Below, in pieces: positions 33,094 through 64,000 of a DNA stretch of 64,000 nucleotides; within the stretch, counting starts at the first letter, position 1, and each line of letters starts with the position of its first letter. The stretch lies in NCBI RefSeq assembly GCF_009914755.1, contig NC_060947.1; one strand, given 5' to 3'. The DNA is from the human T2T-CHM13v2.0 reference genome, Homo sapiens. A program made the position numbers and the translations under genes. Below the pieces are notes generated by a model that saw nothing but the letters and a program-made list of their open reading frames with translations, searched no databases and was not told the DNA's origin.

Positions 33094-33276
<183 letters not shown>

Positions 33277-34479: not shown

Positions 34480-36110
34480 CATGAATCTGGTATAGGCATT
34501 TGAAAAACTACAACAATGGAGAAGACAGACTTCTGACATGATGAAGTGTCAACATTAGAGACAGAGATAATCATAGTATTAGATTGCACCATATGAAATT
34601 GCCAATATTTCACAATTTTGGTTTTATCAAAGAAAGCAATTTCTTATGGTCAACCTAATATAAGAGCTGTGACATCCATGCTTCATGAACAATAAAAGAG
34701 TTGATGGACATTTTACAGGAGTATACAGGAATGGTACGGTTCAGAAAACCATAGTATATGAGTAAGAAAAGATAGTGCATGATCAGACAACTCCAAGCAT
34801 AAGTAACTTCCATGGTAAGGGCAGTAACCATGATATACGCTCAAACATTCACAGTGCTTTAGCAGACCTTAATGTTGTGTAATCATATGACAAGAATTAA
34901 TGTTCAGATAATCACGATACATGAATTGACAACTACTCTACAGGAACAGAGACACTTGGGCTAGGATATGAAGTTCAAATCATAGAAATAATCCATGGAA
35001 CATAAGACATAGCCATGATGCATGCTTAGAAAACATGAGTCCATGAGTAACAATCCTGGATGTAGGAGAAGATGGCCATGCTGTGTAAACAAAGAGATCC
35101 ATAGTGTGTGTTCAGCTATGCTATTCTACTATATCACTATGGGTTATGTTCAAATTATCATGGTAGATAAGCAGCAAACTATCATATTAAGAATAGATGG
35201 CAATTACATAGAATTAAATGCCCATGATTTGGAAAGAGAAAACTAAGACATATACTATGATACATAAAAAAGACAACAGCATTACATGAAATCATAACTA
35301 AATAAAATGTCTGTGACAGTGAAACAAAGAGCCTTCAAAAATGATCACACATCCATGTGGCTGGAGGCAAATACAGTATATGCATAGACAAACATGATAC
35401 ATGTGAAGAAGCATTTGGTACATCAATTCTTAACCATGATAAATGCACACAGAATATATGTATCATAGCAACCATACTATAGGAATTAAGTGAAATGGTT
35501 TAGGAGCAGACTGAAGTGCTATGGAATTAGATTACCATGGTGCAGGAACACAAAAGGTCATGGTCCATGAGTAGGCAGACATGGTCAAAAATTTTTCACT
35601 GTAGCAGAAAGGTAAGATACAGTTGCAAGTGACCATAGTGAAGAATTGATATCCTTTGGGTAATGATGATGACAGTGAATAAATAGCTATTTGTAGTGTA
35701 CGAACACACAAATATAACGCACATATCCATGGTGAATAAAATGAAAATTACAGTGAAGGAACATCATACGAATATTCAGACAACCATGATGTACAAGCAG
35801 AAGGTAAAACCTATTGCTGATTTTAATCAAGAAGCCAGGCTATGTTGCAAAAGTAGACAACCATAGTGTATGCTTATATAAGTACAGTACATAAAAAAAA
35901 AATGTCCTGTGAGTTTACAGTCAACCATGGCACAAATGCAGATGCCTTTGGCAGGAGCAGATTGGCTATGAAACAGGAGGAGACAACTCTTGTGCAAACT
36001 CAGATAATCATGGTGTTAGAAGAGATTATCCATGATACATGAACACATAATCATGACACGTGCTCAGGCCATTATAATATGTAATTGCATGGCCAAATTA
36101 GCAAATGATT
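34480..36110. repeat. Second block of the same degenerate 21-bp repeat
   Basis: Units start at 34836, 34857, 34878, 34899, 34920, 34941, 34962 (e.g. TACGCTCAAACATTCACAGTG, AATGTTCAGATAATCACGATA). Many ACCATG(G/A)T and CAGA(C/T)AA motifs. Confidence 0.8.
34577..34660. mobile_element. MADE2 mariner MITE inserted in the 21-bp repeat block
   Basis: tattagattgcaccatatgaaattgc ... gcaatttcttatggtcaacctaata TIRs with TA ends. Confidence 0.85.
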
Positions 36111-55957: not shown

Positions 55958-58781
55958 AAGAAGCCACAAAGGAAAATCATGATTCCATTCATATAAAGTT
56001 CAAAAACAGCAAAACTAAAGTGTATTTTGTTATACATATAATAAAGTTATTTTTAAAAGTAAGATTAAGGATAGTGGAAGTAAAGTGGGAAAGAAAAGGT
56101 TGAAATTAGAAATAAGTTCGTTACAGGCTTCTGGAGTACCCACAATGTTATAGCTGTTGACTTAGTGGTTCTACAGGTGTTCACTTCTTAATTATTCTAA
56201 AACAGCGTGCATCTTTGTGTGATAATTATATTTACATATATAGTGTTTCATATTTTAAGCTAAAACACAGAAAAGTAAGTCCTATGCACAGTTGAATAAT
56301 AAAAATTTCAGATTGTTGATTACATTGATATATATCCTTAAAAACTTAGTCTTAAGATTGATTGAAGAAATGCAATTAAAGCAACAAGGCATCACTCCAC
56401 CTATCAAATGAACAAAAGCTTTTTAAAAAAATGCTAAACAATTCTGTTGAAGATAGGACGAGACAAGAATTCCATATATCTGCTAGTGTGAGCGTAAATC
56501 TATGCTTCCTTCCTTGTAAACAATCTTGCAGCATGAATAAAAAGCCTGTAAAAAAAAATCCATGCTTTGACTCAGTAACTGCACTTCTAGGAATCTACTG
56601 GACAGAAAAAAACCAAAGATTCAAAAAAGTCATGTTCAAATATATTTTCTGCAATATAACAGTATATTAGTTAAATTTTAAAAAATAAATTGAATGTGCA
56701 TACTAACAGAATGGTTAAATAAACAATGGTCGTTGATACATCTAAATATTATACAGGTGAAAATTACATTTTAGAACTATTTTATGTGGAAAAATGTATA
56801 TGATATATTAATATATTTGAAAGTCAGGATATATAACCCAGAAATATAAGTTTTCAATCAAAGAGATAGAGTGTCTTGTCCAATGTCGTAACACAATGAA
56901 AACAGAGAATGGAATTGAAACAAATATTATCAAAGAGAATAACTATAGCACAGGAGCGTTCAATCAATGAGTGCCCACCTGATCATGGTGTATTTTCTAT
57001 GTATGATCATCAAAGTGGACAAATAAACATTCTTAAGAGCATTACCATTGAATTGCATAACTTAGTGGTCCATAATAATAATCAGTAGCCAACTATAGAT
57101 TCTCACCCTGCATGTGTTCAGATAACCCTGACCATAAATGAGCCGATATTCACAATGCGTAAGTTGACAACCACTGTTTATGAGAAGATATCACTATTCC
57201 AAGAACACTACTATTTAGAATGAATACTAAATTTGCAATGGTAAATAAGTAGATATCCATAGTGAAGTAATGATGTTTTCACCAATAATATGAAGTCATT
57301 AAATCATGAAACATGTCATAATAGTGCTAGAGCACACAACTATAGGATGGTTATTATTCAGGCAGATACTGCATGTATTTTTAAAATTATGAAACAAATG
57401 GATTTGCTTCAGGATCAGATGCAACCATGCAAAAGATTATACTAATATATGCTCAAGCACACAGGGTACATGAACAGCTATCACTTAAGTTTGAAAAATT
57501 CATTATAATGGACACTCAAACAACTCTGCCACATTTGCTGCAAGGCATGCAACAGTAGACATTTGGAGATGAAAAAGGAAAAGAATGGTAATAGAAGAGC
57601 AGGCAAATGTGGTATATGAGCTAACCATCTAGGGCTTATAATACTTCATTCTTAGTACTATAGTAGACAATCATAGTTCAGGCATAGATACACATAGTAA
57701 ATATGCACAACTCTACAACTTAAGACAGAAGGAGATGTCACTAATGATCTGCTTACTGAAGTATATGTGTTGCTTGACTTAAACACACACAAGGCATAGA
57801 AAGTAGTAGCTTTGGTCCAGAAGTAGAGGGTAATGGTATAAAAAAGAAAACCTCGGCATAGATCAAGAAGACCATAGCACATAAATATCCATCAACAGCG
57901 TTTTATAATTTGACCATGATACATAACAAACAACCTCAGATTATGAATTGAAACTTACGAAACAGGAGGAAGTAGCCATGATGCAGAAATAAATGGACAT
58001 AGTACAGGTGCAATCACAAATACTGTGTTATGTGATACACAGAACATGAATTTTTAAAAATGGCTTTGGTCCAGGAGCTGAAGGAATTAATGCAAATGGA
58101 GATCCCACGGCACATTCCCAGACAACCATGCTGCGTGATGAAGCGGCACTACTAGAGGCTGAGGATTTGACCGTGATGCATAATCAGATGACAGCAGCTA
58201 TATAAGAGGAGATAGCAATGATTCAAGAACACATCTATGCAGCCTAAGTGCAGACAGTAATTGATATATGAAGGAATGTAGCAGATGGCAATGATGCAAA
58301 AGGAGATCATGAATACCATATGATCACAATGTACCCTAAGACAACTGCAAAATGAGCTCTTGACTATGTTATGAGAAGATGATATAGAAGGAGACAACAC
58401 TGATGGAGGGGAAGAATACCTCAGTGCCGGACCTAAAAACCATCATGCATCAGCTAATACATAGTCCAATACACAGAAGATGGCATTTTCGGTGCAGGAT
58501 CAAACTATAATGGCTCATGCTTAGAAAATTGTGATTTTTTATATATGGTACATGGAAGGGAAGCATGGTAAATGATAAAAAAAAATATAGGAGCAGAGAG
58601 ACATCGTTTAGAGCTTGTTCACATGGATAAGATTTGAGATTAAAAAAATACAACACAGGAACAAAGATTTGGGGGCAAAGTAAATGGCAATAGTAAAAAG
58701 TAAAACAACACAGTATATATTTAAATAGCAATGTGGTATGAACAAACATTCCTGGTGTTTGAACTTCTAATATACAATCAG

Positions 58782-58875
58782 TTTTCAACTTCTTTGCCTT
58801 TGGTTTGAATGTCCTCCCATAGCTCAGAGTAATTTGATCGTCTGAAGCCTTCTTCTCTCAGCTCGTCAAAGTCAT
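58782..58875 (-). mobile_element. 94-bp L1HS/L1PA2-type ORF1 fragment
   Basis: Encodes DFDELREEGFRRSNYSEL(W)EDIQTKGKEVEN; flanked by a caatcag direct repeat. Confidence 0.92.
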
Positions 58876-59434
58876 CAATCAGATAACTATAAAGTGTATG
58901 CTGAGAGTAAGGACACAGAGCTAAAGGATGTGATACAGAAACTGACAGCAATGACAGGAAACCATAAAAAGGGAATTCAAATGAAATAAATTTGATATAT
59001 AAACTTATTTCAATAACATGAATGATGGCTATCTCATTACAACAGTAGACACAATTATGCCTTATGCAGAAAACCATGGTATGTGAGCACATTAGATAAC
59101 TATGGTGATGCACATACAAGTATGTTTGAGGAAAAATTAGAAATGGTAGGTCAAGAAAGCCATAGACTGGTACTTACCGAGAGGGGCATGGTACAATATT
59201 TTCAAAATAAGATGGCATGAAATAGTCCAGGAGCAGATGGCAATGGCCCTATAGATGACATCAAGGCAAATGGTTGTACAACATTTGTGCATTGTAAAGC
59301 CACCACCAGTGCTTAACCATTAGACTATAACACACACCAAGATAATCCCAGAACATAGGCTGCCAACCATGATAGAGAATGAAGAAAAAATTCTAGTATA
59401 ATAACGATGATAACGATGATGAGGATATTATTAA

Positions 59435-59530
59435 AAATTATAATTATTTAGAACTTATTACATACCAAGCACTAAGCACTTTAAAAAAACAAGCATATGA
59501 GGTAGATGTTATTATTTTAGGGAAAAACAA
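59435..59530 (-). mobile_element. Partial MIR within the repeat array
   Basis: cataccaagcactaagcactt...tatgaggtagatgttattatt, preceded by an (ATA/ATG)n tail. Confidence 0.6.
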
Positions 59531-60554
59531 AAAAAAGTGATTTGTATATAATGCAGTCTACCCTTATTATATATCAGTGGTGCTATGCTACCTCTAATGG
59601 ATATGGTAAATTAAAAAACACATGCTTAACAGAGGAATTAATGGCTATATTGCTGATAGAGACAATAATTCCTGTTGCATAAATAAATATATAGTCCATT
59701 GCCAGACATTCTTGGTGTATGAGCAGTCACAATAGTCAGAACATTTGACCACAGGCACACTCAGATAATCCTGCAATATGAACTGACATTCAGGATGGCA
59801 GAAGCACAGGCAAACACGATACTGTCAAAATTAACAAACTGTTATTCATGATACAGATGATTCCATCCTTTTATCAGTTCAGGAGTAGACAATGACAACT
59901 GCATTTTTACACAACCATAGTGTATGAGCGAAAGTCTATAGTACAACCCCATACACAATATATGAGCAGAAATTCCTTACGCGTGCTCAGTCTACCATGG
60001 AGAATGAGCCAATACTTACACATAAAAGAAAACAGACATGACACAAAGAAAATAGCCACATAGTTGAAATTGTACAGATGATCACAATATATAATCGAAA
60101 AGCCACAATACGGGAAAGAATTCCTTGGTTTAGGAGGAGATGGCAATGGTAGGAGACACCATGACATGCGCTCCAATGATCACATGGAAGAAAAACTACC
60201 ACTGGTGTTTGAGAATTTAACCACAATACACACCAATATACACTGAAAGGTGAGCTATCAATTATGATACAGGTACAGGTGGAAATAGAATAGTAGTCAA
60301 CTACTGTGCTATTCTTTCTCAAAAAGACACGATGAATAATGAAATACAACACAGCAATGAATGACTTTGCCAAAGGAGTAAAGGGTATATGTGCAAAAGG
60401 AAAAACCAAGGTATAACATCAGACGACCATGCTGAATGGACAGCCACCACCAGTAATTTAGCATGTGACTAAGGTACACAACCAGACATTCTCAGAATGC
60501 AAGCTAAAAGTCATGATAAAGAATAAAGAGACATAATACAAATAATATAACAAT

Positions 60555-60760
60555 ATCAGCAAATACTTATCATTTATATGTGTCAGGCACTAATCTAAGC
60601 ATTCTACATGTGCATCTTTGAATCCTCACAACTCTATGAGGTATTATTATTTATTTTACAGTTTAGAAAACAGAAACAGAAGGGTGAAATGACTTCCTCA
60701 AGAATTTCAAACTATTAAATAGGAGAACTGGGATTTAAGTCCAAGCAGTGAGCATTGTGC
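60555..60760 (-). mobile_element. MIR within the repeat array
   Basis: tgtgtcaggcactaatctaagc...aatcctcacaactctatgagg...ttttacag...ggatttaagtccaagcag. Confidence 0.85.
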
Positions 60761-60871
60761 ACATACACTGATGGTGCCATGCTTCCTCATATGGATGTGA
60801 TACAAGATTAGAAACACAGAGCACAGGAACAAATGGCTTTGGTCCAGAAGCAGACGGCAATGTAGCAAAAG

Positions 60872-60952
60872 TAGACACCGTAGCACATGCTCAAACATCC
60901 GTGGTGCATGAGCAGCCACCACAGGAGTCTGAGCATTTGACCACGATGCACA
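60872..60952 (-). ncRNA. MIR105-1: microRNA 105-1 precursor hairpin (5p 60918-60940, 3p 60881-60902)
   Basis: The minus strand contains UCAAAUGCUCAGACUCCUGUGGU (miR-105-5p) and ACGGAUGUUUGAGCAUGUGCUA (3p) in an 81-nt fold-back. It is intronic and on the same strand as GABRA3. Confidence 0.97.
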
Positions 60953-62073
60953 CTCAGGTTCTGCAACAGAAGCTGACATCCAATATATAGGAGTAGATAC
61001 TGAGGACGAAGAAGGAGGCAAACACACTGTATGACAAAAAATCATGGTGCACAAAATTATATTCATGGTACAGAAAATTCCATTTTTAGTACAATGTAGA
61101 CAACGATGGTGCATTTTCACAAATCATGATGAATGAGCAGAAGACCATAGCTAAAGGGCATAAGCACATTCATACAACCATGGAAAATTAGCCAGGGCTC
61201 ACTTAGAGCCAAGAGACATCTTATGAGAAAATAATCATAAGTGGAGACCTCATAGATGGATATAGTACAAGATCAAAACATCTCAATACATGAATGATTA
61301 TTTCAAATGTAGGTGGCAAAGGTGCATAGAGGACCCACCGTGTAACATGTTCAGACAAAAGTTGATGAAAGCCATTAGTGATATTTGACTGTTTGATCTT
61401 GACTTACACAGGTACACAAAAGTAGTTTACACTATTACGTAGCATTTATGCCAAAGGAGCTAAGAGGCATAGATAGATACAGCACACAAACTTGTTTTCG
61501 GAGAATAAAACCATGCTGTGGTGCTTACTTAGACAGATATTGTGCCTTATACAAGAGCCACGGTACAGGGGTAAACAGCTTTGTCCATGAGTAGATGTCA
61601 GATATGTCAAAAGAGACCTGACACCATATACTCAGATGACCATTGCATGAACAGCCACCACTAGTATTTGGGCATTTGACTATGATGGCTACCTACACAA
61701 TCCCACGACATAAAGTAAAAGAATGATACAGGAGCAGGTAGACATGAAACCATGATTACCAAAACGGATATGGTTGGTGATTAAAAATCATTATTTTCTT
61801 TAGTCTGGGAGAAGATGGCAATGATTAAACGGGTGAAGTTATGATATATGCTGAAACAGCCATGTTGCATGAACAGCCATCACATCATAGGCATTTAAGC
61901 ATTTGACTGATGTACAATTAGAAAGCCCAGTGACATGAGATAACATCTGTCTTTTTGGAACAGATAAACAATGTGCAGAAAAAGGCAGAAGTGATCTAAG
62001 AGTAGAGAGTCATAGAATATGAGTAAATACTAAACTCATATACACGATGCATAAAACACTATTTCCCTGTAAA

Positions 62074-62182
62074 GCAGTAGACAATGAAGGTTCCTGCTCA
62101 GAAACCATGGGGTATGAGCAGACAAGCATGCTGCATGCTCAGACAACCATGGTGCATGAGCAAAAACCTACAATATAAAAGC
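62074..62182 (-). ncRNA. MIR767: microRNA 767 precursor hairpin (5p 62134-62156, 3p 62100-62122)
   Basis: The minus strand contains UGCACCAUGGUUGUCUGAGCAUG and UCUGCUCAUACCCCAUGGUUUCU, between the two miR-105 copies. Confidence 0.97.
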
Positions 62183-62724
62183 AGGTGGGTGTGATACAAG
62201 AGTGAATAACACAATGAGGAATATGCCCAGATGGACAGGACATATGAATAAAGGAAACATAACACATGAATACAACTTATTTAGGCAAACAGCATATGAC
62301 AATGATGCTGGAGGAGATATCATGGCACATACTCAGGCAATCATGGTGCATGAGCAACTAACACTAATATTTGACTGTTAAACCACGATGTACACCCAGA
62401 TATCCCAACAAAAATAAGCTGATGACCATAATATAGGAGCAGATGAACAAGGATATTGAAGAAGATGCTGATAATAAAATAGCAGAAAACGATAGTGCAG
62501 TAGCTAATAGAATACTACAGATGGCAACGATTCAAATGACTGCCATGGCATATACTTATATAATGATGCTTTAAACACTATCACAAGTATCAGCATTTGA
62601 CCATAATGCACACTTAGAGAACTCCAGAATTTGAGCTGACAATTATTATACACGATCAAGGGACACAGTATCATTATCATCATTGTCATGTCATCATCAT
62701 CATCATCATTGTTATCATCATCAT

Positions 62725-62935
62725 CACTACCTGCCAGGCAGTATTAAAAATATTTTATGTATAATAGCTTATACAATCCTCACAATAACCTTACTACTTT
62801 TTTTGTCATTTTGCAGGAAACTGAAGCATGAAGATACGAATTGATGTGTCCATTTCATGAACTGATGTGTCCAAGATCTCATAGCTAGTAAGTGGATAAT
62901 CCAGGATTCAAATTCAGTCATTTTGGCTCCACTAT
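62725..62935 (-). mobile_element. MIR within the repeat array, with (CAT)n microsatellite tail at ~62670-62727
   Basis: tgccaggcag...aatcctcacaataacc...ggaaactgaagc...agctagtaagtgg...caggattcaaa. Confidence 0.85.
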
Positions 62936-63064
62936 CCATTATTGTAAATATGACAATAAATGACAATATGCTGTGATTCTTCTGACAGACATGATACCAG
63001 ATTTTAAAACAGAGCAGAAAAATGAGTGGCTTTGTTCCAGAAGCAGATGGCAATGTTGCAAAAG

Positions 63065-63145
63065 TAGACACCATAGCACATGCTCAAACATCCGTGGTGC
63101 ATAAGCAGCCACCACAGGAGTCTGAGCATTTGACCACGATGCACA
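63065..63145 (-). ncRNA. MIR105-2: microRNA 105-2 precursor hairpin (5p 63111-63133)
   Basis: Second 81-nt copy with the same mature 5p; two substitutions relative to 60872-60952. Confidence 0.97.
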
Positions 63146-64000
63146 CACAGAAGATCTGCAACATGAGCTGATACCAGGTTATAGGGAGTAGACAGATGAC
63201 AAAGGACAGAGAAAACTCATCACAATAGTGAAAGACATGGTGTAGAAATTAATATACATAGTACAAAATACTCATTCCCAGTACAAGTAGACAATGATTG
63301 TGTATTTTCACACAAGTGTGGTGTTTAAGTTTAAATACGTAGTACAACTTCAATCACAGTATATGAGCACAAATTCATTATGTATGTTTATATTATCATG
63401 GAGAATAGGTCAATTCATACATGAAAAAGGGGATAGATATGGTATCCCAGCAAAGAATCACAGAGTAAAAACTGCTCAGGTGATACAAAAAATACGGGTA
63501 TGTATGGCATTTTGTCAAAAAGAAGATCAAAATAATACAGGATGTTCAGATGAATAAGATGCCAAAAAGCATGTTTTAATATGTGTTCATGAGGTCCAGT
63601 CAGACACCTACAGGACATAGGCTATCAATTATGACACAGGTGCAGATGGACATGATATGGAAATAAAACATGGTGTGATTCTTACTTGGGTAGATATGGT
63701 ATGTAATCAAAAATAACCATGCAAGCAATTAATGACTTTGGCCCAAGAGAAGATGACAGTGGTACAAAAAAAAGACTCACATGGACATAATGACTCATAA
63801 AAAAAATAACCATGGTGATTGACTCTACACATTTGTGTTTGGGCATGATATAAATCCAAACGATCCCATTACACAAACTAACAGCTATGATACAGTTAGT
63901 AAGCATGATACAGGAACAGACAGCAAATATGGAGAAAATACCCATTCTGCAGGAGCCAGTGACCACAATTCAGGAACTAATATTCATGTTATTAAAGTTA

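What the first reader, a model, noticed from the sequence alone, without database searches (positions are those of the whole stretch)
56900..64000. miR-105/miR-767 cluster is carved out of an ancient quasi-palindromic 21-bp minisatellite
Seen: the apparently unique DNA around the miRNAs has a 21-nt period. MIR767 is four consecutive units (CCTGCTCAGAAACCATGGGG / TATGAGCAGACAAGCATGCTG / CATGCTCAGACAACCATGGTG / CATGAGCAAAAACCTACAATA; starts 62093, 62113, 62134, 62155). MIR105-1 is likewise (CAAAAGTAGACACCGTAGCA / CATGCTCAAACATCCGTGGTG / CATGAGCAGCCACCACAGGAG / TCTGAGCATTTGACCACGATG; starts 60866, 60886, 60907, 60928). The phase continues into the flanks. The unit contains the palindrome ACCATGGT and alternates GCTCA with its reverse complement TGAGC, so runs of about four units can fold into an ~80-nt hairpin whose arms are about one miRNA long. 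Established: these miRNAs are intronic in GABRA3. Inference: a self-complementary tandem repeat with a period close to miRNA length acted as a hairpin nursery, and miR-105 and miR-767 are two registers of the same repeat. I am not aware of this origin being described but cannot search the literature.
Basis: partly seen in the sequence, partly recalled or inferred. Interest (0 to 1): 0.92.

Follow-up and report, generated by a model that had tools for sequence, protein, structure and literature searches.

The report
miR-105/767 sit in old 21-bp repeat
The three human microRNA genes miR-105-1, miR-767 and miR-105-2 lie, in phase, inside a decayed 9-kb tandem array of a 21-base unit in an intron of GABRA3, and look like the last working survivors of a once much larger array of similar hairpins.

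Summary
A degenerate, one-directional 21-bp tandem array (consensus about CATGAGCAGAYAACCATGGTG on the + strand) covers window 56918-64000 and runs on to about 65820. A second 1.4-kb patch lies at 34689-36069. Lag-21 autocorrelation is z 9.9 against shuffles, and still z 9.7 after all hairpin-like cores are masked. A matrix trained only on the distant patch hits the main array 12-fold above background.

A 154-nt module of seven units, holding the mir-105 hairpin, recurs at least 25 times. These relics no longer fold. Their consensus, built without the three live genes, still folds into a mir-105-type hairpin (-34.4 kcal/mol, z -4.4).

mir-105 folds about the TGAGCA box and mir-767 about the CCATGG-type box, half a unit apart. 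mir-767 looks like a local triplication of module unit 3.

Not supported: a general GCTCA/TGAGC alternation, which occurs only in mir-767, and any present-day excess of hairpins in the array.

Eight full-text literature searches found no description of this origin. No other mammal could be examined. I rate it a new variant of a known kind, of moderate-to-high interest.

The parts
56918..64000 (+). Main degenerate 21-bp tandem array. It runs on past the window end to about 65820, and a 91-nt outlier lies at 67431-67521. The unit consensus is CATGAGCAGAYAACCATGGTG on the + strand, so GABRA3 transcripts carry its reverse complement.
   Evidence: The wraparound tiling gives 8903 nt, 1253 bits and 426 units. 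Matrix hits are 16-19 per kb on + against about 1 per kb on - and elsewhere. A matrix trained only on the patch hits here at 12.5 per kb against 1.06 per kb in the rest of 124 kb.
34689..36069 (+). Second patch of the same 21-bp array (69 units), 21 kb away in the same intron and just upstream in transcription of the exon at 33095-33260. It holds relic modules but no hairpin that Rfam can recognise.
   Evidence: Module hits lie at 34816-34941, 35062-35186, 35360-35480 and 35952-36084. There is no mir-105 match at E <= 1.
60872..60952 (-). MIR105-1 hairpin. It equals module units u2 (end), u3 (TGCTCA type), u4 (loop on its TGAGCA box, axis about 60912) and u5 (TGAGCA type).
   Evidence: Rfam RF00670 scores 110.2 bits. 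The fold is -47.8 kcal/mol, z -7.1. Unit-by-unit matches to the relic consensus are 16, 17, 17 and 19 on the diagonal.
63065..63145 (-). MIR105-2 hairpin, with the same layout as MIR105-1. The two modules are 91% identical over 151 aligned nt.
   Evidence: Rfam scores 108.9 bits. The fold is -41.3 kcal/mol, z -7.2. Identity is, and blastn gives 86.7% over 203 nt.
62086..62171 (-). MIR767 hairpin (annotated gene 62074-62182). It consists of four in-phase units, 62093 (C), 62113 (A), 62134 (C) and 62155 (A). Its axis is at 62128, in GCATGC, which is the counterpart of the CCATGG box.
   Evidence: Rfam RF01033 scores 111.4 bits on - and 45.1 on +. The fold is -43.3 kcal/mol, z -5.8.
62093..62154 (+). 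Three consecutive units that all match module unit u3 best (16, 17 and 20 of 21). This is a likely local 21-bp triplication that made mir-767, and it is the only stretch Tandem Repeats Finder detects.
   Evidence: The u3-to-u3 spacing from 61847 to 62328 is 481, which equals 2 x 220 + 41.
60838..60991 (+). Reference copy of the 154-156-nt higher-order module (seven 21-mers) around MIR105-1. Other full or nearly full copies start at 57403, 57811, 58065, 58668, 59223, 59673, 60125, 60366, 61299, 61580, 61799, 62280, 62518, 63031 and 63737, and beyond the window at 64194 and 65062.
   Evidence: Iterated nhmmer gave 59 hits at E <= 1, of which 36 were included. MAFFT alignment A1 has 56% mean column identity. 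Model R1 gave 58 hits at E <= 1 in 124 kb, 57 of them in the array regions.
62314..62394 (-). Best-kept dead mir-105-like hairpin relic. Others lie at 58099-58182, 61836-61916, 62536-62612 and 61613-61691.
   Evidence: Rfam scores are 44.1, 39.3, 27.8, 24.7 and 24.3 bits against a gathering score of 68. The folds are no better than shuffles (z -0.7 and -0.2 for the first two; all relics z -2.2 to +2.4).
62660..62990 (.). Interruption of the array: an (ATC)n microsatellite at 62670-62726, followed by about 260 nt without the 21-nt unit, just before the MIR105-2 module.
   Evidence: Tandem Repeats Finder. There are no matrix hits between 62630 and 62976, and the tiling rows are poor.

Best explanation
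GABRA3 intron 1 holds the decayed remains of a three-level tandem repeat, and the miR-105/miR-767 cluster is what is left of it under selection.

Level 1 (shown). A 21-bp, one-directional minisatellite. Its unit has two boxes about half a unit apart: a true palindrome CCATGG and a near-palindrome TGAGCA, whose exact complement TGCTCA differs only in the central dinucleotide.

Level 2 (shown as sequence homology; order of events inferred). After the units had diverged, a seven-unit, roughly 154-nt module was amplified with a variable spacer to at least 25 copies. In this module one TGCTCA-type unit (u3) is followed by TGAGCA-type units (u4, u5). On the GABRA3-sense strand, u3 pairs with u5 around the TGAGCA box of u4. 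This gives the mir-105 hairpin, so the intron once carried a large array of mir-105-type hairpins.

Level 3 (inferred). All copies but two lost their pairing by neutral decay. In one module, unit u3 was re-duplicated at the 21-bp level. This gave a C-A-C-A run that folds about the other axis, the CCATGG-type box. That hairpin is mir-767, so miR-767-5p and the miR-105-3p arm descend from the same unit but sit on opposite arms.

The array itself probably has no present function beyond the three hairpins, which are processed from GABRA3 or cancer-germline transcripts of the minus strand.
For: - Periodicity and extent are established, and cross-validated from the distant patch.
- The array is strand-specific: 199 hits on + against 83 on - in the window, and the - hits are at background level everywhere.
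- The miRNAs are in phase with their flanks.
- Module homology is position-specific and not merely 21-mer similarity. mir-105-1 units match relic units u1-u7 on the diagonal at 17, 16, 17, 17, 19, 11 and 15. Module copies were found by nhmmer, aligned independently by MAFFT to nearly the same consensus, and found again with model R1, where 57 of 58 hits at E <= 1 in 124 kb lie in the array regions and 57 are on the + strand.
- The hairpin is ancestral. The majority consensus of 25 relic copies, with mir-105-1, mir-105-2 and mir-767 left out, folds on the minus strand into an 85-nt hairpin of -34.4 kcal/mol (z -4.4). The relics themselves fold at -5.5 to -23.6 kcal/mol (z -2.2 to +2.4).
- The live modules evolve more slowly: 80% identical to the relic consensus against 67.6% for relics.
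- The two axes are seen.
- The mir-767 units 62093, 62113 and 62134 all match u3 best (16, 17, 20 of 21).
- C followed by A occurs 11 times against 3.5 expected (P 0.0002), and C-A-A 4 times against 0.49.
- The family appears locus-specific. A 31-mer at up to 3 mismatches finds only mir-767 in the genome. A 21-mer at up to 2 mismatches finds 6 scattered sites. RF00670 finds 6 matches, all in this array, among the 57 candidates scored.
- In a simulation, a pristine array folds at -28.3 against -14.4 kcal/mol for shuffles. At 10-20% divergence, 16-20% of windows reach -25 against 2-3% of shuffles.
- An earlier paper placed hsa-mir-767 in the mir-105 family by precursor phylogeny (PMC1832191, passage read).
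Against: - Today's array is no richer in stable hairpins than control intron. Mean z is -0.21 against -0.16, and windows at z < -3 number 20 of 591 against 13 of 591, with about 9 of the 20 being the three known genes.
- Units sampled from the present-day matrix fold no better than shuffles.
- The module period is irregular (186-295 or about 450-600 nt). Unit-space autocorrelation shows no peak at 10-11 units.
- The copies used for the consensus were chosen by a search seeded with the mir-105-1 module, which could pull the consensus toward mir-105.
- The descent of mir-767 is ambiguous, because no module diagonal stands out (10.5-13 matches per unit). nhmmer and R1 also allow a junction of a module tail with u3-u4.
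- Tandem Repeats Finder and the global Fourier spectrum do not show the array.
- Whole-genome searches were shallow.
- No RepeatMasker or Dfam look-up and no second species were available.
Confidence: 0.7

Rival explanations
1. Hairpin first. A single mir-105-like hairpin, with internal repeats of its own, was tandemly duplicated together with its flanks. On this view the 21-nt signal is only the echo of the hairpins' internal structure, not of an older minisatellite.
For: - Every module carries a hairpin-type core, and the module consensus folds.
- Lag 42 and longer lags are weak.
- Tandem duplication of hairpins is the usual way miRNA clusters grow. Hertel et al. 2006, PMC1388199, report 3 mir-105 copies in dog and 2 in human (passage read).
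Against: - With all hairpin-homologous cores masked (2220 of 8903 nt), the remaining DNA keeps lag 21 at z 9.7, and 0 of 200 shuffles reach it.
- Units outside the hairpin (u1, u6, u7 and the spacers, for example 60967-61132) are recognisable 21-mers in continuous phase.
- Random units are far more diverged from one another (42% identity) than modules are (55-68%). This argues that the 21-mers are older than the module.
Confidence: 0.15
2. The two patches are copies or fragments of an old interspersed element, such as a transposon with an internal minisatellite. The miRNAs would then be transposon-derived, like mir-548 from MADE1.
For: - There are two separate patches 21 kb apart with the same module.
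- A sub-threshold mir-548/MADE1-like hit lies at 34577-34660, at the edge of the patch.
- No repeat library could be consulted.
Against: - Whole-genome pattern searches find nothing beyond chance outside this locus.
- DNA searches with 1 kb of the array and with the whole patch return only themselves.
- RF00670 matches lie only here.
- In 124 kb, 57 of 58 module hits are in the array regions.
- All of these searches have limited reach for DNA this diverged.
Confidence: 0.07
3. Chance or base-composition artefact. On this view, A-rich low-complexity intron DNA mimics a period and the consensus is over-fitted.
For: - The first matrix was trained on the region it was then used to describe.
- Tandem Repeats Finder and the Fourier spectrum are nearly blind to the array.
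Against: - Dinucleotide shuffles never reach the observed lag-21 value.
- A matrix trained de novo on the distant patch recovers the same unit, circularly permuted, and hits the main array 12-fold over background, on one strand only.
- The other roughly 31 kb scanned gave no segment of 30 bits or more.
Confidence: 0.01

Closest known systems
Large tandemly duplicated mammalian miRNA clusters (mir-379/410 at DLK1-DIO3, C19MC)
   Same: Many paralogous hairpins lie head to tail, in one orientation, within one transcription unit. They were made by tandem duplication of a module that contains the hairpin. Copies are gained and lost by lineage.
   Different: Here nearly all copies are dead (3 live against at least 25 relics). 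The module is itself built from a 21-bp minisatellite, and no Alu or other transposon was seen to frame it. The comparison rests on recall. Of these clusters I saw only search listings (PMC2500034 and PMC9699419).
miRNAs derived from tandem or simple repeats (mouse mir-467 family in Sfmbt2)
   Same: The hairpins arise from repetitive, non-transposon DNA and are multiplied with it. Yuan et al. 2011, PMC3059204, say the mir-467 family derives from simple repeats (passage read).
   Different: The unit here is a 21-bp quasi-palindrome rather than a simple repeat. The array is ancient and degenerate rather than annotated repeat DNA. The main text of that paper does not mention mir-105 or mir-767 (0 occurrences), and its supplementary tables were not seen.
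De novo miRNA hairpins from template switching at quasi-palindromes (Monttinen et al. 2023, PMC10710096)
   Same: A near-palindrome becomes a perfect inverted repeat in one mutational step. The TGAGCA to TGCTCA change is an inversion of the central dinucleotide, which is the kind of change that mechanism produces.
   Different: No template-switch event was demonstrated here, so this is an inference. That paper does not mention mir-105, mir-767 or tandem repeats (0 occurrences each; passages read).
Higher-order repeat organisation of satellites (alpha satellite)
   Same: Diverged monomers are grouped into a multi-monomer module that is then amplified as a block. As a result, monomers at the same module position are more alike than neighbouring monomers.
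   Different: The monomer is 21 bp, the array is about 10 kb, and it lies in an intron. It is old and decayed, and its module period is irregular. The alpha-satellite comparison is from recall.
mir-105 family assignment of mir-767 (Huang et al. 2007, PMC1832191)
   Same: That work already proposed that hsa-mir-767 belongs with hsa-mir-105, on precursor sequence (passage read).
   Different: In the passages seen, it does not mention a repeat array, relic copies, a 21-nt unit or a shift of the hairpin axis.

Membership tests
Minisatellite (head-to-tail array of a 10-100 bp unit) | Neighbouring copies spaced at one fixed period | tested here: met
   Matrix-hit spacings in 56500-64000 are 21 (34 times), 41 (15), 42 (6) and 62 (5) among 139 spacings. 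Spacing mod 21 is 0 or 20 in 65 of 139. Lag 21 is z 9.9.
Minisatellite (head-to-tail array of a 10-100 bp unit) | All units in one orientation | tested here: met
   Hits are 16-19 per kb on + against 0-3 per kb on - within the array. With the patch-trained matrix, hits are 12.5 per kb on + against 1.0 per kb on -.
Minisatellite (head-to-tail array of a 10-100 bp unit) | Detected by a standard tandem-repeat finder | tested here: not met
   Tandem Repeats Finder at minimum score 30 reports only 62099-62162 (3.1 copies, 75% matches) within 56000-64000. The array is too diverged: random units are 42% identical to one another.
Higher-order repeat array | A multi-unit module recurs with position-specific unit variants | tested here: met
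   There are 36 included nhmmer hits. A1 has 22 copies with 56% mean column identity. mir-105-1 units match the relic consensus on the diagonal. R1 finds 57 of 58 hits in the array regions.
Higher-order repeat array | Regular module period | tested here: inconclusive
   Module starts are 219-295 nt apart where copies are adjacent, and about 450-600 nt apart elsewhere. There is no peak at 10-11 units in unit-space autocorrelation.
mir-105 precursor family (Rfam RF00670) | Score at or above the gathering score of 68 bits | tested here: met
   60872-60952 scores 110.2 bits and 63065-63145 scores 108.9 bits. The five relics score 24.3-44.1 bits and so are not members.
mir-767 precursor family (Rfam RF01033) | Score at or above the gathering score of 90 bits | tested here: met
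   62086-62171 on the minus strand scores 111.4 bits. The plus strand scores only 45.1 bits.
Known interspersed repeat (transposon) family | Dispersed copies elsewhere in the genome | tested here: not met
   Searches find nothing beyond chance outside this locus. The searches score only the best candidates and are weak for DNA at 55-70% identity.
Known interspersed repeat (transposon) family | Match to a curated repeat consensus (Dfam/RepeatMasker) | not testable with these tools
   No repeat library is on hand. The hub's list of long masked stretches has none inside 56.9-64 kb, but it lists only the longest.
Tandemly duplicated miRNA cluster | Several paralogous hairpins, same strand, one host transcript | tested here: met
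   Three live hairpins lie on the minus strand inside GABRA3 intron 1 (and the hub annotation). The relic modules are in the same orientation.

The most novel reading that the evidence does not exclude
A quasi-palindromic 21-bp minisatellite in an old host-gene intron generated miRNA genes more than once. Its two dyad axes per unit gave two hairpin geometries (mir-105 and mir-767). Block amplification then produced an array of at least 25 to about 40 mir-105-type hairpins in the ancestor of placental mammals. Different lineages may have kept different copies, which would explain dog having 3 copies and human 2. This would be a worked example of tandem-repeat-driven birth, expansion and death of a miRNA cluster that can be read from one genome.
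Probability: 0.5. Interest if true: 0.72.

Novelty: new variant of a known kind. Interest (0 to 1): 0.6.

Why it matters
miR-105 and miR-767 are much-studied cancer-germline miRNAs, and their origin is treated as unknown or simply 'de novo'. This locus ties them to one concrete mechanism: a tandem repeat whose unit is nearly self-complementary, followed by block amplification and decay. It also explains why mir-767 groups with mir-105 although their mature sequences differ.

The reading makes clear, cheap predictions for comparative genomics:
- Which mammals keep which module alive.
- Whether marsupials have the bare array without hairpins.

It also shows that old tandem arrays invisible to standard repeat finders can still be recovered by lag statistics and profile tiling. 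That matters for claims that a miRNA arose from 'unique' sequence.

Tried and rejected
- Tandem Repeats Finder at minimum score 30 sees only the mir-767 core.
- The global Fourier spectrum gives no decisive peak for the array or the patch.
- Unit-space autocorrelation for a 42-nt alternation or a 10-11-unit module gave no peak. An unexplained peak appears at 58 units.
- Sliding 90-nt folding of the minus strand shows no excess of hairpins over control intron. The plus strand was not scanned.
- Relic hairpins are not folded today.
- A coding origin of the 7-codon period is rejected. The 8 stop-to-stop frames of 90 aa or more all lie on the minus strand (0 on plus). I put this down to composition: the consensus unit carries stop codons in two of its three plus-strand frames and in none of its minus-strand frames. 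They were not pursued.
- Global alignment at the 2193-nt offset between mir-105-1 and mir-105-2 suggests an older, larger duplication, but the controls were too gappy to settle it.
As a result, age-of-origin tables for mir-105 and mir-767 and the supplementary repeat tables of PMC3059204 were not seen.
- The eight literature searches found no paper describing a 21-bp array or relic hairpins at this locus. The two papers holding 'GABRA3', 'intron' and 'minisatellite' concern a promoter GA repeat.

Full report
**What is in the sequence**

The 21-nt period is statistically strong.
- The lag-21 match fraction in 56900-64000 is z 9.9 against 100 dinucleotide-preserving shuffles.
- It is z 7.2 in 56000-60860, which has no annotated miRNA, z 4.1 between MIR105-1 and MIR767, and z 3.1 between MIR767 and MIR105-2.
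- Two control stretches of the same intron have no lag-21 peak.

In 1-kb windows, lag 21 is the best lag from about 56.5 kb to the window end. Unexpectedly, it is also the best lag at 34.5-36 kb.

An iterated position matrix converged on CATGAGCAGATAACCATGGTG (11.4 bits, 126 units). Its hits run at 16-19 per kb on the + strand across 57-64 kb. They number 8 and 19 in the two kilobases from 34 to 36 kb, and are about 1 per kb elsewhere and on the - strand. The repeat is therefore directional.

**Extent**

The window's genome is held, so I fetched the next 60 kb. The array continues to about 65.8 kb, with a faint outlier at 67.4-67.5 kb, and then stops.

A wraparound alignment of the matrix to 30001-72000 gives:
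- one segment at 56918-65820 (8903 nt, 1253 bits, 426 units);
- one at 34689-36069 (1381 nt, 412 bits, 69 units);
- a 91-nt piece at 67431-67521.

Nothing else reaches 30 bits. The stacked units of the patch are plainly a degenerate minisatellite.

To remove circularity, I trained a matrix de novo on the patch alone. It recovered the same unit, circularly permuted. It hits the main array at 12.5 per kb on + against 1.06 per kb in the remaining 114 kb and 1.0 per kb on -.

**The period is not an echo of the hairpins**

I masked every hairpin-homologous core, mir-767 and the microsatellite with its insert (2220 of 8903 nt). Lag 21 stays at 0.326 against 0.275 in shuffles, which is z 9.7, and 0 of 200 shuffles reach it. 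Units between the hairpins, for example 60967 to 61132, follow in continuous phase with occasional 1-nt slips. Spacings of 21, 41, 42 and 62 dominate.

Some results go the other way:
- Lag 42 is weak.
- A global Fourier spectrum has no decisive peak.
- Tandem Repeats Finder reports only 62099-62162.

I attribute these to loss of phase through indels. The tiling needed 258 insertions and 283 deletions.

**The miRNAs in the array**

Rfam confirms mir-105 at 60872-60952 and 63065-63145 and mir-767 at 62086-62171, all on the minus strand. It also lists five sub-threshold mir-105-like matches on the same strand, at 24-44 bits against a gathering score of 68.

The tiling passes through all three genes without a phase break.

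**A higher-order module**

blastn showed that the mir-105-1 block resembles not only mir-105-2 (86.7% over 203 nt) but also about nine other places in the array, at 67-81% identity.

Iterated nhmmer seeded with 60825-61050 converged on a 156-nt module. It gave 59 hits at E <= 1, of which 36 were included. Full-length copies occur throughout the main array and in the patch.

MAFFT aligned 22 copies independently and gave nearly the same consensus, with 56% mean column identity. A sequence-only model built from that alignment found 58 matches at E <= 1 in 124 kb. Of these, 57 lie in the array regions and 57 are on the + strand.

The module is seven 21-mers, u1 to u7. The homology is position-specific: mir-105-1's units match the relic consensus best on the diagonal, at 17, 16, 17, 17, 19, 11 and 15.

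The period of the module is irregular. Unit-space autocorrelation shows no peak at 10-11 units.

**The hairpin is ancestral and the copies are dead**

Each relic's counterpart of the mir-105 hairpin folds at -5.5 to -23.6 kcal/mol (z -2.2 to +2.4). The live genes fold at -43.1 and -41.3 kcal/mol (z -6.4 and -7.2) (rechecked).

The majority consensus of the 25 relic copies leaves out mir-105-1, mir-105-2, mir-767 and the reverse-strand rows. It still folds on the minus strand into an 85-nt hairpin of -34.4 kcal/mol, z -4.4, in the mir-105 register. The amplified module therefore already carried the hairpin. One caveat is that the copies were picked by a search seeded with mir-105-1.

Relics are 67.6% identical to their consensus (Jukes-Cantor distance 0.43), while the live modules are 80% identical to it. 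From recalled divergences of old mammalian repeats, this places the amplification at or before the placental radiation. It is an estimate, not a measurement.

**Two registers**

- In mir-105 the loop lies on the TGAGCA box of u4, at about 60912. The TGCTCA box of u3 pairs with the TGAGCA box of u5, and the two CCATGG-type boxes pair with each other.
- In mir-767 the loop lies at 62128, on GCATGC. This is the counterpart of CCATGG, and neighbouring TGAGCA and TGCTCA boxes pair.

The mir-767 units 62093, 62113 and 62134 all match u3 best (16, 17, 20 of 21), and no module diagonal stands out. The u3-to-u3 spacing across this module is 481, which equals 2 x 220 + 41. I therefore favour a local 21-bp triplication of u3. 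A junction of a module tail with u3-u4 is also allowed.

**What was not supported**

- Alternation of GCTCA and TGAGC is not general. Of 426 units, 60 are TGAGCA-type and 25 are TGCTCA-type. C then A occurs 11 times against 3.5 expected (P 0.0002), while A then C is at expectation. C-A-C occurs once, in mir-767, and C-A-A occurs 4 times against 0.49 expected.
- The array today is not a hairpin-rich place. On the minus strand, 20 of 591 windows have z < -3, about 9 of which belong to the three genes. Control intron DNA has 13 of 591.
- In a simulation, only a young array has an advantage. A pristine array folds at -28.3 against -14.4 kcal/mol. At 10-20% divergence, 16-20% of windows reach -25 against 2-3% of shuffles. 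There is no advantage at present-day divergence.

**Locus specificity and prior knowledge**

Whole-genome pattern, DNA and Rfam searches find nothing outside this locus beyond chance.

Eight full-text searches found no description of this array. From passages that I read:
- Huang et al. 2007 assigned mir-767 to the mir-105 family (PMC1832191).
- Hertel et al. 2006 noted 3 mir-105 copies in dog and 2 in human (PMC1388199).
- Yuan et al. 2011 do not mention either gene in the main text (PMC3059204).
- Monttinen et al. 2023 describe template switching at quasi-palindromes but not this locus (PMC10710096).

Supplements were not readable, and paper reading closed. No RepeatMasker or Dfam look-up and no other mammalian genome were available.

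**Verdict**

This is a new variant of a known kind. I score interest at 0.6, and comparative data are still needed to settle the order of events.

Noticed in passing
window 34577-34660: A sub-threshold mir-548-like (MADE1-type) match on both strands (30.9 and 28.5 bits against a gathering score of 90), directly at the left edge of the 34.7-36.1 kb patch.
   Followed up: no
window 62670-62990: An (ATC)n microsatellite (19 copies), followed by about 260 nt without the 21-nt unit, interrupts the array just before the MIR105-2 module. This is probably a later insertion.
   Followed up: partly
window 60100-61700 against 62293-63893: At the 2193-nt offset between MIR105-1 and MIR105-2, a global alignment gives 71% identity with 364 gap columns. 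Three control offsets give about 1400-1600 gap columns. Identity is 88-96% at the hairpin and 74-77% just outside it. This hints at an old 2.2-kb duplication.
   Followed up: partly
window 56900-64000, minus strand: All 8 stop-to-stop open frames of 90 aa or more (up to 143 aa) lie on the minus strand and none on the plus strand. I put this down to composition: the consensus unit carries stop codons in two of its three plus-strand frames and in none of its minus-strand frames.
   Followed up: no
main array, unit space: Similarity between units 58 apart (about 1.2 kb) is raised (z 4.2, and z 2.6 at 59 units). This is not explained by the module.
   Followed up: no
window 58820-58909 and L002:215-310 (window 64215-64310), minus strand: These two stretches fold somewhat better than shuffles (-26.6 kcal/mol at z -3.4, and -28.9 kcal/mol at z -2.8; 2 of 200 shuffles do as well in each case). 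Both are branched rather than single hairpins.
   Followed up: partly
L007:9072-9139 (window 121072-121139): This is the only module-model hit outside the array regions (12.8 bits, E 0.013). It is probably chance.
   Followed up: no
L002:3383-3589 (window 67383-67589): A small distal outlier of the array: two weak module hits and a 91-nt tiled piece of 52 bits. It is separated from the main array by about 1.6 kb without the unit.
   Followed up: no
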